Of a stretch of DNA of 64,000 nt, positions 14,050-21,366 are shown in pieces. Position numbers and translations under genes: made by a program. Numbering within the stretch: the first letter of the stretch is position 1; each line of letters starts with the position of its first letter. This DNA is from the human T2T-CHM13v2.0 reference genome, Homo sapiens. The notes under the pieces are model-generated. The model had not been told where the DNA came from. It searched no databases and worked only from the letters and a program-made list of their open reading frames with translations. The stretch lies in assembly GCF_009914755.1 (NCBI RefSeq), contig NC_060925.1; one strand, 5' to 3'.

Positions 14050-14138
14050 ACAGGTTACTTGGTACTTATTGCTGTTATGCTGGTGTCTCGAACATATTGT
14101 GATGTTTGGATGATTCAAAATGGGACACTAATTGAAAG
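14050..14138 (+). CDS. ABCD3: ABCD3 exon 4 (89 nt) TGYLVLIAVMLVSRTYCDVWMIQNGTLIE(S), first TM helix
   Basis: ttttag| ... GAAAG|gtactt. Confidence 0.96.
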
Positions 14139-15773
14139 GTACTTTTTCAATCACCTTCCTCCTATATGTATGAAATGCTAATTTGTCTCATATTTATGCA
14201 TTATCTTTATAAGCAACAAATAGATTCTAAGTTAGGTAAAAGATAACCCAAGTCAAATTATGTGTTTGTTCATTTACTTAAAAAATACTTAGTGTTTCCC
14301 ATGTGCCAGGCAATGTGCTATACTGTGATGGGGTCTATATGCCAGCAACTAGGAGAAACTGTACCAAGCCTTGCTGAGCTGACAGTTTATCAAGAGTTAG
14401 AGACAGGTAGACAGAAAATTAAAATGCAGCATAATAAGTGCTGTAATGGGAATTCTAAAAAACCACCAAGTTGGATTTTTGAAATTAATGAGATAATTTG
14501 GAGGAAAATTTCAAAGCATTTCAAAGAATCACATTGAGCATGTTTATTAGAAGGGAAGACAATTCTTAGACATTTCTTTCTGCATCTGGTGATAGTGCTT
14601 TTTATATTTTTTCATTATAGTCTTTCTACATATTATTAATCACTGCAATTGCTAATTTTGAATGTAAAAACGTAAAAAATGTCAGTTGGGATATCTTGGG
14701 TTATAACAATTTACCATTTATCTGTTAATAAAGAATTTATTTTTCATAATACCAATTAGAATGTCAGAGTAAACATTTTTGCTAGGAATTTTATTTCCTG
14801 GTATGCAGTATTTTGTCAGAAAATTCCTTAAAGTATTTAATCTAAAATAACTTTTTGAATGACAGTACTTAAAATTGTTAAATGCCCCAACATTTTGGAA
14901 TAAAGGTTTTTTTCTCTTAGATTATTGATCTGCTTCTTAAAGATTTGTAGGAAGAGGAAGAATGCTTTATGACCATGCTCTCTGACTCATTTCTCTAGGA
15001 CAGTAAAAAATCTTGTATGTATAGGATTAAAGCCTTGAATTACATACTTCTGAATATGGGTAAATTATGTAGGCCCTCACATTCCACCCAAGTCTCCCTG
15101 AAACCTGTGGTCAGTCCTGTGCCTTTTAATTTTAATCAAAGTAATATATGAATGTAACTTTAAAAGTAATACATGAACATAGCTTAATGTCAGATGTTCT
15201 GCAGGACTTAATGACAAAACACATGAATTCCTTGGCTCCTCTCACTCACAACTGTCATTACGTGGAGCCGGTCTTTTTTCCTATTCTTTTTACTGCTTCA
15301 TCTCTTATTTTGTGTCTGTGTTTCCATATTGCATACTTGTATTACTGTTCATAGATTTCTCAGTTTCAAGAGTGTAAGTGTTCATTTCCTACTTTGGAAG
15401 GTGAGAATTAGCTCTTTTACACTCCCTCCGTGCTCATCTTCTCAATGTTTTATATGTATAATAAAAATTATATAATTTTTGGTTAAATCACAATTTATTG
15501 TTTACATGATTTTGACTATTGCTTACAGCTGAGCCACATGGCATACTTTGGTAGTTGCGTTTCCATACAACTTTTTGTTTTTCCTGGTGTTTACAAATTG
15601 GCAGTTATTTGTGCACATTAGTTTTTTTTTTTTTTTAAACCTACTTCCCCCTAATTCAGTTTGAGCTTTTTGACAATACTGAGAAATCTTCTCAGTATTG
15701 TAATATGGTCAGACACCAACTAATCTATCAACTTCATCTTTCTATTTCCACCCCCGCCCTATACGTTTTGTAG

Positions 15774-16062
<289 letters not shown>

Positions 16063-16404
16063 CTTCTTGCTTTAATCAGGATTGGTTGCATTTTAGGCCC
16101 ACTGAGTAGCAATCACGTTTGAATTTGCTTTTATCATTATTTTGGGAATTTCTTTCATCTTTGTATCCTGAATTAAATAACCTGTTTCTGGATTTTTTGT
16201 TTTTCTCTTCCTCAGTTTACTTTCTCGTTTTGGCAGATGCACTCTTTTTCTGAGTAAGGATGAAGGGAGATAAATTTTTGAGACCTTGCAGATCTGAAAA
16301 TGTCTTTCTTCTAGTCTCATACTTGATTGATAATTTAGCTATGTTTGTGCATTCCAAGTTGGAATTCACTTTTCTTCAGAATTTTGAGAACATCACTCTG
16401 TTCT

Positions 16405-16555
16405 GGGTCTCAACCTTGGCTGCAGAATGATTGGAATCATCTGGAGAATTTTAAGAATTATGAATGTCTGGGCCCCACCACTAGAGATTCTGATTCAATT
16501 AATCAAACCTTTTTGAAGCATCTAGTGGATTCTGTTGTGCAGCTCCAGGGTGGGT
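16405..16555. mobile_element. MER5-type hAT-Charlie fragment within an ancient L1M region
   Basis: ctcaaccttggctgca...gaatcatctggaga...ctgggccccacc..agagattctgattcaatt. Confidence 0.65.
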
Positions 16556-17289
16556 ATTGAGGCCTCTTGCCATTCCGATTGCTCAGCTATAGCTGGAGAT
16601 TTGTTCCTCCCTCAATCTCCCCCTCAATCTTTTTTTAAAAAATTGTTGATGTTGTATTACTGGATGTTTGAAAATTTCACTGAACATTGGTATGAATTTT
16701 TTTTTTTTGTTCATTGTGCTGGGCACTAGGTGAACTCTTTTTCCATCTAGAAACTTATTCTTCATTTGAGAAATTTTCTTGTGTTTAAAAAGAAATTATT
16801 CCTCCATTTTTTCTGGAATTCTTATTAGCTGAGTGTTGGAGCCTCTGGACTGATGATCTGATTATCTTATAATTTCTCTTCTATTTTTGTCTCTGCCATT
16901 TTATTTTATTTTCTAGGAAATTTCTTTATTATCCAGTGAATTTTTATTTGTTATAATTTTATTTCCAAGTTATCTTCTATATGGATGTTCATTTTTATAG
17001 CAATCATTCTTTTAAGTATGCAGTATTTTTTCACCTCTGAAGCTATTTAAGTTTTTAATGTGTTTTTAGCTCCCTGCATTTTTTGTTATTCTGTTGTCAT
17101 TCACATTAGAGGCCTTCCTCAAGCATTCTGTGACTCTTGGCTGTGAATTCATATTTAAAAGTAAGTGCCTTAAACACTTACTAGAAGCTGGAGTTGAGAG
17201 CTTGTTAACTGGTCTCCCTTGAAGGGTGTTTGTAGGGGGACCCTAATCATGTGCACGTGTGTGTAGTACTCAGTTTTAAAATTTAATTA

Positions 17290-17642
<353 letters not shown>

Positions 17643-18298
17643 GATTAGCATAAGGAACTTCCTTATATTCTTAACCCACATTCACCAATTGTAAAACACT
17701 CATTTTAAAGTTGTTAACTTTCTCCTAAATAGTTTTGAGCCTCTGCTGTGTATGAAATTCTTTAATATTTGGACCTTATCTCAAAAAAAGTTTTAAAATA
17801 TTGTACATTCGTACAGGATAATTTTATTTGAAAAGTTAACATATATCTCCATCTCAGTATTTAAGCTACAGTGCAAATTGATTTATTTATTTTCTCTTTT
17901 TGCCTTTTCTAAAGTAAGTCCAGATTCATGTATTTCTGCTAAAGAAAGCCTCAAAGAGACTTATTATGGTCCTTAATGTACTTCATTTTAATATCCTTTT
18001 CATATTTTAAGCTTATTTGTTGATGGTGACTAATGACTTTGGAGTATGGGCAAATCTTAATAGGAAAGACACCCTCTTTAAGGTAGAAACTATACTAATT
18101 CCATGACATGGAGGAAAATTCTTCATACCTTGTTGCTGCTTTATCTAATCATAAAAATATATTTTATTTTCACCCATTTGGCTACAAGCAGAATTTAAAA
18201 ATTACCAAACTCTCTTTTATAAAGATTCTTAAACATTTGGAAGTTGTAGTGATTAGGGCTATTGTAAAATTGTTTTTTGTTAATTATTTTTTTTGCAG

Positions 18299-18368
18299 TG
18301 GAATAATAAGCAGAAATAAGGCTTTATTCAAGAAACCATTTTTTAAATTTATAGCTGCTACTCCAATG
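18299..18368 (+). CDS. ABCD3: Candidate alternative exon 5a (70 nt), paralog of exon 5: (S)GIISRNKALFKKPFFKFIAATPM
   Basis: T-rich tract + ttttgcag|T GGA ATA ATA ... CCA ATG|gtaaac; same length and phase (2/0) as exon 5, no stop, 12/24 aa identical; usage not demonstrable from sequence. Confidence 0.7.
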
Positions 18369-19262
18369 GTAAACCATTGCTGAATGATGGCATGTTCTTG
18401 TGTGTTTCACAGCTTGGGCAGCACTAAAGCACTTTGGTTTTAAGTAAGGTTTGGTTCAAACAATTTTAACATAAATTCTCTGAACCTTTTGTACTGTCTT
18501 GATTGCTTAATGTCTGTAATATTCTTATTGCTATAAACAACATTTTTGTGTGGTTCTATTTAACTTTCTTGTAGTTAGCGTTTTTTTTTTTTTAACTGTT
18601 TTACTTTTTAGGGGCTATATAAACATTGGAGTATTAATTTCTCTTAATCAGTCTAAAGGAACATTTCCCAAAGTATGTTCTGTGGAATCTTGGCTATGAT
18701 AGAGGAAATGTTTCATGCTACAAACCCCTCTCAGAGAGTTAAAATGCACATACTATACATTAAAAGCTTTGAGAAGGTCTTTGGTAAAGACATTTGTTAG
18801 ATTTGTTTAACCTAGGATTTCCCAAATTTATCCATCTCGTCCCTCACAGAAAAGAAATTATTTCTCTAGTCATATACTAGTAATTTTTGTGTGTGCGTGG
18901 GCAGCTAGGTTTAAACCACTTAGTCCAGTGTTTAAATGTTTTATATAAATATGTCTTATGAAATTTGGGAACATTATTAAGTATTACTTGAAGTAAGAGT
19001 TCTGTGATCAAATACATACTATCTTTGTATTAGGTCATAGACATATCTTACTCAAAGATCCTTTACTTATATAATACTGCTTTGTTCAAATTTTTAATAA
19101 AGTTTTAGAACCCTTTTTAAAAATTTTTAATGTATATTTTAAAAGCAGAAAAATATGTAAAACAGATTAACAACAGGCAAAAGAGAAGCTAGTCTAGCTG
19201 AAGTGTGTTGAGGAACATGAAGCTTCTGTAGATCCATTCTGGGCTCTGATCTATGCGTTAGT

Positions 19263-19453
19263 CCCAGTATTGGCAAACTAGGACCCACAGGTCAAATCTC
19301 ACTACCTGCCATCTGTTTTGGTAAAGTTTTATTAGAATACAGCCACACTTCTTGGCTGCTTTTGTTTTACAGTGGCAGAATTGAGTAGTTGCAGCGGAGC
19401 CCTTAGGGTGCACAAAGCCTAAAATATTTACTCTTGACCCTTTGCTGATCCCC
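19263..19453. mobile_element. MER58A-like DNA transposon
   Basis: ttggcaaact...ttattagaatacagccac...ttgagtagttgc...aagcctaaaatatttact. Confidence 0.75.
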
Positions 19454-19890
19454 ATTAAGTCTGTCTCCCTGCCATTAGTTCACACAAATGAGAATCAGAT
19501 TATTAAAATATTTTAAAACAAACAAATGGTACTTTGTTTATTCATAATAACCCATTCCTGGGACTATAAAGTTGTTAATTGTTATGCTAGCTTAGTTTCT
19601 TTTGTAGCCACTTAAGCCTTTTTTTAAAGCAGCCATTTTTACTAAGAAATAATTAGTTATCATTCTGTTTAATTTTGCCATTTGCAGGATGAGGTTCCAG
19701 CAAGTTCAAAATGATGACATTTTAAAGTTGCAAACATGTTTTTGCAAAAAAGTGGTTTTTAGCATCTTTTTTATTGATTGTTTTGATTTAATAGAAGTTT
19801 CCAAGAGTAATTTTAGAGCTTTACAGAAGTTTTCCTAGTGTTAGATTTTGCTTCTTTTGCAACTAATGCATTGCATGTGGTGGTTTGCAG

Positions 19891-19960
19891 TGGTATCATT
19901 GGTCGTAGCAGGAAAGATTTCAAGAGATACTTACTCAACTTCATCGCTGCCATGCCTCTT
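19891..19960 (+). CDS. ABCD3: ABCD3 exon 5 (70 nt) (S)GIIGRSRKDFKRYLLNFIAAMPL
   Basis: tttgcag| ... CTT|gtaagt. Confidence 0.96.
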
Positions 19961-21268
19961 GTAAGTTTAATTCATTAAAAATCTTTTTAACACGGGAAAT
20001 TTGCATCTTATTAAAATCTTTAAGGGTTTTACTTATTAAATTCTTTAAAGACTTATGATACTAAGTTCCTATTTTCAGTTTAGTTTTGTAATTTATAATA
20101 TAATTTTCAATGTAAACCTTCATACTAGATAAAAAAGGGATTATGTTTGGTTTAATTTCATTTATAATGTGTATATATATTCATATACATATGTATGTGG
20201 GTGAGGGGTTTTTTGGCATTTTTTTTTTAACCTTCAGTCCAGGTTTTCTTCAGTGTTTAGCATCATCAATGACCATTAGATAGCAGTAGCACCCTTCTCC
20301 TAGTTCTAACAACCAGAAATGATTCCAGTCATTGCAAAATGGGTATGGGCAGGGGGCAACTTGGGGAGTTGGGGGGATTTAGAGGGGGGAATGCAAATCA
20401 TCCTGGTTACTTTAGGCCATAAACTATTACAGTAACTTGAACTACTAATTTACTTTAAGTTAAATTGGAATTTATGGTCTGAATTTTTTACAGATAAATT
20501 GTTTAGTCTAAAATATAAGTGATTTTCTTAGGTTGGTTCTCATTTTAATTTTCTTGGCGCTGTAAGAATGTAATATTCTGAATTTGTGGGTAAAAATGAG
20601 AAGCTTGGTTGTAAAATCCAGTTATGTTGAAATTGCCAGAAATTCTTGTTTAATAAAGCTGGAAGCTGGGGCTACATAGCTTTTAGACTTTTTAAAATAA
20701 ACAATTGGAATAAGCAACATAGATATCAAAGATTAAGATTCAGCAAAGACCACTTGAGAAAATTTGTAATGTAACGATGGAAAATGTTAGTAAAGATGGC
20801 TCTAGAAATAATCTGGAAAATAGCATTAGTTGGTGTAAAACCTGTAGTGTTTTTTTTTTTTTAACAAATGCAAATATAGTGTATATAGAATTCCGTTGTC
20901 TAGGGTTGTAGTGCTGATAGTAGGAAACAGAAAATATAAATGTCTGAACTCCTAAAAGCAAGTCTTTACATTGGCTAGAAAGGGGATATATTTGACTTTT
21001 TGCCCGTTTACCAAAAAAAATGGGCAAGGTATGTCGCGTAATTAGTGATATTAACATATTCCATGTAAACTTTAACATAGAATAATTCAAACGAGGTACA
21101 TTTGGTTTAGCTAAATGCAGTAAAGTAAAACAGAACTGAATTATATAAATTTGGACTAAATTATAAAAATTGTAGGATTTGGGACACAGGAAATAATAGA
21201 GAAATAAATTATAGTTTAGTAAGCAGAAATGAAAAGCAAAACCAATAATATTTGTTTGTTTGTTTTAG

Positions 21269-21366
21269 ATCTCTCTGGTTAATAACTTCTTGAAGTATGG
21301 GTTAAATGAGCTTAAACTGTGCTTCCGAGTAAGGCTCACTAAATACCTCTATGAGGAGTATCTTCA
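21269..21366 (+). CDS. ABCD3: ABCD3 exon 6 (98 nt) ISLVNNFLKYGLNELKLCFRVRLTKYLYEEYL(Q)
   Basis: ttttag| ... CA|gtaagt. Confidence 0.96.

What the first reader, a model, noticed from the sequence alone, without database searches (positions are those of the whole stretch)
18299..18368. Hidden paralogous copy of ABCD3 exon 5: candidate mutually exclusive exon
Seen: 1.5 kb upstream of exon 5 is a 70-nt segment bounded by a T-rich tract + gcag and gtaaac, with the same length and phase as exon 5 (19891-19960). It reads (S)GIISRNKALFKKPFFKFIAATPM versus (S)GIIGRSRKDFKRYLLNFIAAMPL: 12/24 identical, several conservative changes, and most identical residues use different synonymous codons (GGA/GGT, ATA/ATC, AGA/CGT, TTT/TTC, CCA/CCT), the pattern of an old duplicate held under protein-level selection. 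Including both exons gives TGG TAT CAT TGG TCG TAG and skipping both gives a TGA in exon 6, so only one-of-two keeps the frame. Inference: a second PMP70 isoform with a different loop and helix start after the first TM segment (about residues 112-135), which could alter substrate handling. I do not recall this exon in the reference protein isoforms. Pro in place of Tyr may mean it is decaying in this lineage.
Basis: partly seen in the sequence, partly recalled or inferred. Interest (0 to 1): 0.9.

Follow-up and report, generated by a model that had tools for sequence, protein, structure and literature searches.

The report
Known muscle-type alternative ABCD3 exon 5
The segment is a real, very old twin of ABCD3 exon 5 that is swapped in for it, reportedly in heart and skeletal muscle, but it was already described in 2016 and is annotated in many other vertebrates.

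Summary
Observation confirmed. Window 18299-18368 is a 70-nt segment with a U-rich tract + CAG acceptor and a GTAAAC donor. It has the same length and phase as exon 5 (19891-19960) and is 11/23 whole codons identical in protein. Only one-of-two keeps the frame. The match is not chance: score 53 against a next-best 25 in all six frames, and 0 of 200 shuffles reach it.

It is a genuine mutually exclusive exon, here called 5A. Dog and goat ABCD3 proteins carry its translation 23/23 identical, spliced exactly between the exon 4 and exon 6 residues. The same exon type appears as 'isoform X2' in amphibians, coelacanth, gar, many teleosts and probably lamprey. Three species list both types, and one catfish model carries both in tandem.

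It is not new. Goldstein et al. 2016 (PMC4878813) describe an unannotated ABCD3 exon, mutually exclusive with an annotated exon of identical length and homology, preferred in heart and skeletal muscle. Snaptron displays junctions matching that prediction. It is absent from the RefSeq table supplied.

The 'decaying' idea is not supported. The exon encodes the lumen-side tip of the TM1-TM2 hairpin. The proposed regulation by RBFOX-type motifs is inference only.

The parts
18299..18368 (+). Alternative exon 5A of ABCD3 (70 nt; T2T chr1:94,320,299-94,320,368). Encodes (S)GIISRNKALFKKPFFKFIAATPM, residues 112-135.
   Evidence: sequence, frame. (dog P0005 and goat P0006-8 carry the identical 23 residues between exon 4 and exon 6 residues). 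(dog alt isoform matches G000:C1:94320288-94320374). (published description that fits).
18270..18298 (+). Acceptor of exon 5A: U-rich tract plus CAG.
   Evidence: pyrimidine fraction 0.75 over -23..-4, within the range 0.50-0.95 of the gene's 21 annotated acceptors examined.
18369..18374 (+). Donor of exon 5A: ATG|GTAAAC.
   Evidence: same intronic hexamer as constitutive exon 12 (GAG|GTAAAC). 5 of 8 consensus matches, the lowest in the gene, tied with exon 19.
18390..18406 (+). GCATG (18390-18394, +22 from the 5A donor) followed by TGTGTGTT (18399-18406): candidate downstream intronic enhancer (RBFOX-type and GU-rich motifs). Function inferred, not shown.
   Evidence: one of only two GCATG in 18000-20300 (window density 0.83 per kb); the GU-rich block lies in a stretch (18400-18432) still alignable to two unnamed ORFs from other genomes.
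18208..18232 (+). CTCTCTTTT…TTCTT cluster about 70-90 nt upstream of exon 5A: candidate PTB-type silencer. Inferred only.
   Evidence: CTCTCT at 18210, TCTT at 18213 and 18227. (flank alignable to the unnamed ORFs P0003/P0004).
19891..19960 (+). Annotated exon 5 (type 5B, 70 nt). Encodes (S)GIIGRSRKDFKRYLLNFIAAMPL.
   Evidence: Hub annotation..
19862..19877 (+). ACTAAT (19862-19867) and TGCATG (19872-19877, -19..-14 from the exon 5 acceptor), inside the most pyrimidine-poor acceptor region of the gene: candidate repressive RBFOX/QKI-type sites. Inferred only.
   Evidence: the only TGCATG in 18000-20300; 17 in 64 kb. (exon 5 pyrimidine fraction 0.50, lowest of 21 acceptors).
14050..14138 (+). 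Exon 4, the upstream partner of both alternative exons. It ends …GAA AG, so Glu111 and two bases of Ser112 are shared.
21269..21366 (+). Exon 6, the downstream partner of both alternative exons. It contains the TGA met when both are skipped.

Best explanation
18299-18368 is exon 5A of ABCD3, the upstream member of an ancient tandem-duplicated pair (5A/5B) spliced in a mutually exclusive way. Either exon supplies residues 112-135: the last turn of TM helix 1, a 2-3 residue turn on the peroxisome-lumen side, and the first 17 residues of TM helix 2. Because each exon is 70 nt (not a multiple of three), mRNAs with both or neither hit a stop codon within a few codons, 17-18 exons before the last junction. 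They should therefore be removed by nonsense-mediated decay, so only one-of-two products persist (inferred from the frame and the standard NMD rule). According to Goldstein et al. 2016, 5A is preferred in heart and skeletal muscle. I propose, as inference only, the following tissue switch. GCAUG and UGUGUGU just downstream of 5A would promote it. UGCAUG and ACUAAU inside the weak acceptor of 5B would repress 5B where RBFOX/QKI-type factors are abundant. CUCUCU/UCUU upstream of 5A is a possible PTB-type brake elsewhere. The protein consequence is a transporter with a re-tuned lumenal tip of the TM1-TM2 hairpin. Type-specific residues are Ser116 vs Gly, Leu121 vs Asp, Phe126 vs Leu and Ile/Thr133 vs Met. 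They lie next to Glu111, which contacts the CoA adenine in the published ABCD3 structure. Any effect on substrate choice or gating is unproven.
For: Sequence, frame and splice sites.

Not chance: (score 53 vs next 25; 0 of 200 shuffles).

Spliced exactly as predicted in annotated proteins: dog P0005 and goat P0006-8 read …NGTLIES + the 23 residues of 5A (23/23 identical to the human translation) + IS[VL]VNNFL….

Deep conservation: 136 ABCD3 proteins were retrieved. One (P0140) could not be placed. Of the remaining 135, 67 are 5A-type, 62 are 5B-type and 6 are invertebrate, with a mixed, ancestral-looking segment.

Both types in one species: Pelobates P0009/P0104, Pseudophryne P0011/P0106, and Engraulis P0137 vs P0135/P0136. 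Catfish model P0028 holds 5A then 5B in tandem, the same order as in human.

Human expression: the PMC4878813 passages describe a novel ABCD3 exon mutually exclusive with an annotated exon of identical length. [quoted passage not shown]

Only one such twin exists in the window.

Structure: AlphaFold models give H81-116 / turn / H119-168 for the 5A isoform and H81-115 / turn / H119-168 for the canonical one, with local pLDDT 74-85. PF06472 covers 70-338 in both. PMC11369193 passages: Glu111 bonds the CoA adenine, Lys144' of TM2' binds the phosphates, and TM2 tilts away on ATP binding.

Motifs. Flanking intron (window 18033-18466) alignable to unnamed ORFs P0003/P0004.
Against: I could not see Goldstein's S1 Table (supplements closed). 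Identity of their exon with 18299-18368 therefore rests on the matching description and on there being only one such twin in the window, not on coordinates.

No RNA-seq, junction counts or peptides could be examined here.

The RefSeq table supplied lists 8 transcripts and none uses this exon.

No bird, and no 5A-type reptile, protein appeared among the rows shown (one search showed 120 of 572 hits). Retention in sauropsids is therefore open.

The lamprey segment (P0017) has the GIISRN start of 5A but a 5B/ancestral-like end, and no second lamprey isoform was retrieved. An origin before the lamprey split is tentative.

The regulatory motifs were picked post hoc and are short. Paper searches for ABCD3 with RBFOX returned 11 papers, none relevant by title.

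The whole-protein AlphaFold models are poor (mean pLDDT 49 and 64); only the TM1-TM2 region is usable.

No docking/selector-type RNA pairing was found.
Confidence: 0.9

Rival explanations
1. Poison exon: 5A is mainly included together with exon 5. This creates a premature stop so that NMD lowers ABCD3 output; the protein-coding look is a relic.
For: Including both exons gives a stop after five codons of exon 5. The 5A donor is the weakest-consensus donor in the gene, tied with exon 19.
Against: The peptide is 23/23 identical in human, dog and goat. A recognisable 5A type with its own conserved residues persists from teleosts to mammals; a mere stop-carrier would not need this. Annotated isoforms in many species use 5A instead of 5B. 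The published description is of mutually exclusive use.
Confidence: 0.05
2. Dead duplicate (pseudo-exon): a relic of an exon duplication that is no longer spliced in human.
For: It is absent from the 8 RefSeq transcripts in the hub's table. Mammals have Pro125 where other vertebrates have His or Tyr.
Against: The frame, AG acceptor and GT donor are intact. Protein identity with dog and goat is 100%. Human junction evidence is reported in print. The flanking intron is conserved.
Confidence: 0.03
3. Chance resemblance in AT-rich intron.
For: The intron is AT-rich, and the frame is open for 94 codons around the segment, which can happen by chance.
Against: Score 53 vs next-best 25 and a shuffle maximum of 39 (0 of 200), p about 5e-5. 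Exact splice-site placement and phase. Orthologous proteins contain it.
Confidence: 0.01

Closest known systems
The unannotated ABCD3 exon of Goldstein et al. 2016 (SGSeq, PLoS One, PMC4878813), re-examined with Snaptron (PMC5870547; bioRxiv 10.1101/097881)
   Same: Same gene. The exon is mutually exclusive with an annotated exon and has identical length. [quoted passage not shown] My window scan finds only one exon twin that fits.
   Different: Most likely nothing: this is almost certainly the same exon. Added here: phylogenetic depth, type-specific residues, position in the fold, frame/NMD logic and candidate regulatory motifs.
ACOX1 exon 3a/3b, the mutually exclusive pair in the first enzyme of peroxisomal beta-oxidation
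   Same: Same pathway. There are two equal-sized isoforms differing by one alternative exon, conserved from zebrafish to human, tissue-biased, and with different acyl-chain preference (PMC11178532 passage).
   Different: ACOX1 is a soluble oxidase, not a membrane transporter. A functional difference is shown for ACOX1 but not for ABCD3 5A/5B.
Tandem-duplicated mutually exclusive exons of vertebrates in general (for example in tropomyosins, ion channels, PKM; recalled, not searched here)
   Same: Adjacent homologous exons of equal length and phase, with one-of-two inclusion and deep conservation.
   Different: Here exclusivity can be explained by frame plus NMD alone (70 nt). I found no sign of steric hindrance (the two exons are 1522 nt apart), of U2/U12 incompatibility (both donors are GT-A type), or of competing RNA pairing.

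Membership tests
Mutually exclusive exon pair from tandem exon duplication | Two neighbouring exons, same strand, same length and same phase | tested here: met
   70 nt each, both start with the third base of the Ser112 codon, 1522 nt apart.
Mutually exclusive exon pair from tandem exon duplication | Sequence homology beyond chance | tested here: met
   score 53 vs next 25; 0 of 200 shuffles reach 53; other exons' best non-self score 13-34.
Mutually exclusive exon pair from tandem exon duplication | Functional splice sites on both exons | tested here: met
   CAG|T acceptor with a U-rich tract. The GTAAAC donor is also used by constitutive exon 12. No quantitative splice-site model was available.
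Mutually exclusive exon pair from tandem exon duplication | Exactly one of the two is needed for an open frame | tested here: met
   either exon alone leaves the frame open; both gives TAG; neither gives TGA.
Mutually exclusive exon pair from tandem exon duplication | Transcripts or proteins with one or the other, in the same species | tested here: met
   Protein models: Pelobates P0009/P0104, Pseudophryne P0011/P0106, Engraulis P0137 vs P0135/P0136. For human, only from print; no reads were examined here.
Mutually exclusive exon pair from tandem exon duplication | Double-inclusion and double-skip products absent or degraded by NMD | not testable with these tools
   Needs RNA-seq with and without NMD inhibition.
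ABCD3 / ABC_membrane_2 (PF06472) transporter | The isoform with 5A still matches the full TM domain and the ABC ATPase domain | tested here: met
   dog 5A isoform P0005 matches PF06472 at 6.4e-103 over residues 70-338 (profile 1-269 of 269) and PF00005 at 6.1e-18. The canonical P0075 matches at 9.1e-104 and 5.8e-18.
RBFOX-regulated muscle/heart exon switch | (U)GCAUG downstream of the activated exon and/or upstream of the repressed exon | tested here: met
   GCATG at +22 of the 5A donor and TGCATG at -19..-14 of the 5B acceptor, the only two GCATG in 2.3 kb. The choice was post hoc, and motif presence is not proof of binding.
RBFOX-regulated muscle/heart exon switch | Binding (CLIP) and a change of exon ratio when the factor is removed | not testable with these tools
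   Searching ABCD3 with RBFOX returned 11 papers, none relevant by title. Supplementary tables could not be searched.

The most novel reading that the evidence does not exclude
Exon 5A defines a heart and skeletal-muscle form of the peroxisomal transporter ABCD3. In this reading its lumen-side TM1-TM2 tip (Ser116, Leu121, Phe126, Ile/Thr133 in place of Gly, Asp, Leu, Met) changes gating or acyl-CoA preference, in parallel with the ACOX1 3a/3b switch in the same pathway. The pair has been kept since before the split of ray-finned fishes and tetrapods. The switch would be driven by RBFOX/QKI-type sites. Because the exon is missing from the human RefSeq set, variants in it are currently invisible to clinical pipelines for muscle and heart disease.
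Probability: 0.3. Interest if true: 0.55.

Novelty: already known. Interest (0 to 1): 0.3.

Why it matters
The exon itself is in print (2016) and annotated in many vertebrates, so finding it again is not a discovery. Three things still matter.

(1) The RefSeq table supplied for T2T-CHM13 does not contain it. Variants at chr1:94,320,299-94,320,368 and its splice sites would therefore be called deep-intronic.

(2) In the paper searches I ran I found no functional study of the 5A isoform. All ABCD3 structures retrieved from the PDB match the canonical sequence.

(3) ABCD3 has a muscle disease link through a CCG expansion (PMC11283466), and that paper's main text does not mention isoforms or splicing.

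A muscle and heart form of the transporter, parallel to ACOX1a/b, is a testable idea about tissue-specific peroxisomal fatty-acid import.

Tried and rejected

Earlier-findings look-up: not open.

I replaced it with the 44-codon open frame around the exon.

Competing RNA structure as the exclusivity mechanism: the inverted-repeat scan of 14139-21268 gave 91 pairs. The 25 longest shown are an inverted pair of repeats (apparently Alu, recognised by eye; both arms lie in NCBI-masked stretches) at 15794-16061 / 17431-17587, A/T runs and AT-rich matches. None links the exon 4 donor region with sites upstream of both exons, so this was rejected for lack of evidence, though not excluded.

Recent duplication: the flanks of the two exons do not align beyond the splice-site consensus, so this was rejected.

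Other hidden exon twins in the window: none.

Extra genomic copies: none for the 121-nt query.

Which type resembles ABCD1/ABCD2: the paralogues are too diverged to say (local alignment scores over residues 81-170 were 103 vs 106 and 90 vs 99).

Lamprey second isoform: not retrieved (only 23 candidates).

Literature on regulators or on a muscle isoform: one search was badly framed and useless. Searches found nothing relevant. PMC11779911 only lists ABCD3 among ancestry-associated splicing genes, with no exon detail. PMC10760453 and PMC11874975 mention ABCD3 only in a URL and in a reference.

Full report
**1.

- Window 18299-18368 reads T GGA ATA ATA AGC … CCA ATG. It is preceded by ttgttttttgttaattattttttttgcag and followed by gtaaac.
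- Annotated exon 5 (19891-19960) is also 70 nt and starts in the same phase.
- In register the two share 38/70 bases and 11/23 whole codons with the same residue, 12/24 with the Ser codon split over exon 4.
- Eight of the 11 identical residues use different synonymous codons.
- Joining exon 4 to either exon and then exon 6 leaves the frame open. With both exons the frame ends in TAG after WYHWS. With neither it ends in TGA inside exon 6.

**2. The match is not chance**

- I scanned the exon 5 peptide, ungapped and with BLOSUM62, over all six frames of the window. The scores were 116 (self), 53 (the candidate) and 25 (next best).
- The same scan for the other 21 coding exons gave best non-self scores of 13-34, so no other exon has a hidden twin.
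- Among 200 block-shuffled windows the highest score was 39. None of the 200 reached 53, and a Gumbel fit gives p of about 5e-5.
- The flanks of the two exons do not align beyond the splice consensus, so the duplication is old.
- The 121 nt around the candidate occur once in the window's genome, at C1:94320280-94320400.

**3. It is spliced as predicted in other species**

- The 44-codon open frame around the exon was searched against longer proteins. This retrieved a dog ABCD3 (P0005, representative of a cluster of 30) and three goat ABCD3 proteins (P0006-8).
- All four read …NGTLIES, then 23 residues identical to the human translation, then IS[VL]VNNFL… This is exactly the predicted exon 4 | 5A | exon 6 product.
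- Two unnamed ORFs from other genomes (P0003, P0004) run through the exon (21/23 identical) and its introns. They align to window 18033-18466, so about 265 nt upstream and 100 nt downstream are still recognisable.

**4. Evolutionary depth**

- Two further searches were run: the dog region 96-150 (120 of 572 hits shown) and the lamprey region 100-145 (22 hits). Together with the first search they gave 136 ABCD3 proteins.
- One protein (P0140) could not be placed. The other 135 were classed by residues 116 and 121: 67 are 5A-type, 62 are 5B-type, and 6 are invertebrate proteins with a mixed pattern.
  - The 5A consensus is GIISR[DN]..LFK.HF[YF].YI..IP.
  - The 5B consensus is [GA]IIGRS.KDFK.YL[FL]NFIAAMP.
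  - The invertebrates are sea urchin, two hemichordates, two bivalves and a nemertean. They have Gly116, Leu121, His125, Leu126 and Met133.
- 5A-type proteins come from mammals, eight frogs and toads, a caecilian, coelacanth, gar and many teleosts. They are mostly named 'isoform X2'.
- Both types are listed for Pelobates fuscus, Pseudophryne corroboree and Engraulis encrasicolus.
- A catfish model (P0028) contains 5A and 5B in tandem, in the human order, joined by eight extra residues. This looks like a mis-built model.
- The pair therefore predates the split of ray-finned fishes and tetrapods.
- The lamprey X2 segment begins like 5A and ends like the ancestral form. No second lamprey isoform was retrieved, so an earlier origin is only tentative.
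- No bird, and no 5A-type reptile, appeared in the rows shown. That is no evidence of loss.

**5. It is already in print**

- Goldstein et al. 2016 (PMC4878813; I saw the abstract, the passages and section 9) analysed Illumina Body Map RNA-seq.
[quoted passage not shown] - They suggest a specialised function in those tissues.
- The Snaptron paper and preprint (figure legends and passages) display junctions matching this prediction.
- I could not open their S1 Table. The identification rests on the description and on there being only one such twin in the window.
- Whether ABCD3 was among their nine RT-PCR cases, or among the 216 of 249 exons re-validated by RNA-seq, is not stated in what I read.
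- Further searches found nothing more on this isoform. I tried ABCD3 with 'mutually exclusive', 'novel exon', 'alternative exon' plus skeletal muscle, RBFOX, muscle-specific splicing, and MXE.
- The RefSeq table supplied by the hub does not list the exon.

**6. How exclusivity most likely works (inference)**

- Each exon is 70 nt. Double inclusion or double skipping shifts the frame into a stop within exons 5-6 of 23, far upstream of the last junction. By the standard rule such mRNAs are NMD substrates.
- Nothing points to other mechanisms:
  - The exons are 1522 nt apart.
  - Both donors are ordinary GT-A sites.
  - The inverted-repeat scan showed only a pair of interspersed repeats (apparently Alu, recognised by eye), A/T runs and AT-rich matches.

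**7. How the tissue switch might work (inference, post hoc)**

- Only two GCATG occur in 18000-20300. One lies 22 nt downstream of the 5A donor and is followed by TGTGTGTT. The other, as TGCATG, lies 14-19 nt upstream of the exon 5 acceptor, next to ACTAAT.
- The exon 5 acceptor has the lowest pyrimidine content of the 21 acceptors examined, 0.50.
- From general knowledge (recalled), RBFOX sites downstream of an exon promote it and sites upstream repress it. QKI-type ACUAAY at a branch region represses, and GU-rich elements recruit muscle factors.
- A CTCTCT/TCTT cluster 70-90 nt upstream of 5A could be a PTB-type brake.
- This fits the reported heart and muscle preference but is untested.

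**8. What changes in the protein**

- AlphaFold models built on 50-row alignments are poor overall (mean pLDDT 49 and 64). They are usable for residues 81-160, where local pLDDT is 74-85.
- The 5A isoform is predicted as helix 81-116, turn 117-118, helix 119-168. The canonical isoform is helix 81-115, turn 116-118, helix 119-168.
- Exon 5A/5B thus encodes the lumen-side tip of the TM1-TM2 hairpin.
- Ser112, Ile114, Ile115, Arg117, Phe122 and Pro134 are invariant across both types.
- Positions 116, 121, 125, 126, 128 and 133 differ by type.
- In the published ABCD3 cryo-EM study (PMC11369193, passages only):
  - Glu111, the residue just before the exon, hydrogen-bonds the CoA adenine.
  - Lys144' on TM2' binds the CoA phosphates.
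  - TM2 tilts away to open the exit on ATP binding.
- A change in gating or substrate preference is therefore plausible but unproven.
- Both isoforms match PF06472 over 70-338 equally well.
- All ABCD3 entries found in the PDB match the canonical sequence.
- ACOX1 exon 3a/3b is a precedent in the same pathway for an exon swap that changes chain-length preference (PMC11178532 passage).

**9. Verdict**

- It is already known. The remaining value lies in the annotation gap and the untested function.

Noticed in passing
window 15794-16061 and 17431-17587: A pair of interspersed repeats in inverted orientation (arms 48-65 nt, 71-79% complementary) in intron 4, about 0.7-2.5 kb upstream of exon 5A. 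They look like Alu elements by eye, and both arms lie in stretches NCBI masks as repeats. Such pairs can form long RNA duplexes; no link to the exon choice was examined.
   Followed up: no
P0028 (Tachysurus ichikawai ABCD3a isoform X2), residues about 117-170: This predicted protein contains the 5A-type and the 5B-type segments in tandem, joined by eight extra residues (VMVHHVEC). It looks like a mis-built gene model, but it shows both exons in the human order in a catfish.
   Followed up: partly
G000 contigs C2, C10, C16 and C22, e.g. C2:89422284-89425098, C16:32891410-32894232, C22:17063498-17066343: Several partial copies match only the ATPase-domain end of the query (residues about 509-643), at 43-60% identity. 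From memory they resemble the known dispersed ABCD1 partial pseudogenes; I did not check this.
   Followed up: no
window 19868-19890: The acceptor of the constitutive exon 5 has the most purine-rich 'pyrimidine tract' of the gene (0.50 pyrimidines). This is odd for the exon used in most tissues.
   Followed up: partly
window 18033-18298 and 18369-18466: The intron flanks of exon 5A stay alignable, as translated ORFs, with two unnamed metagenome-derived ORFs (P0003, P0004). The species is unknown, so the degree of constraint cannot be judged.
   Followed up: partly
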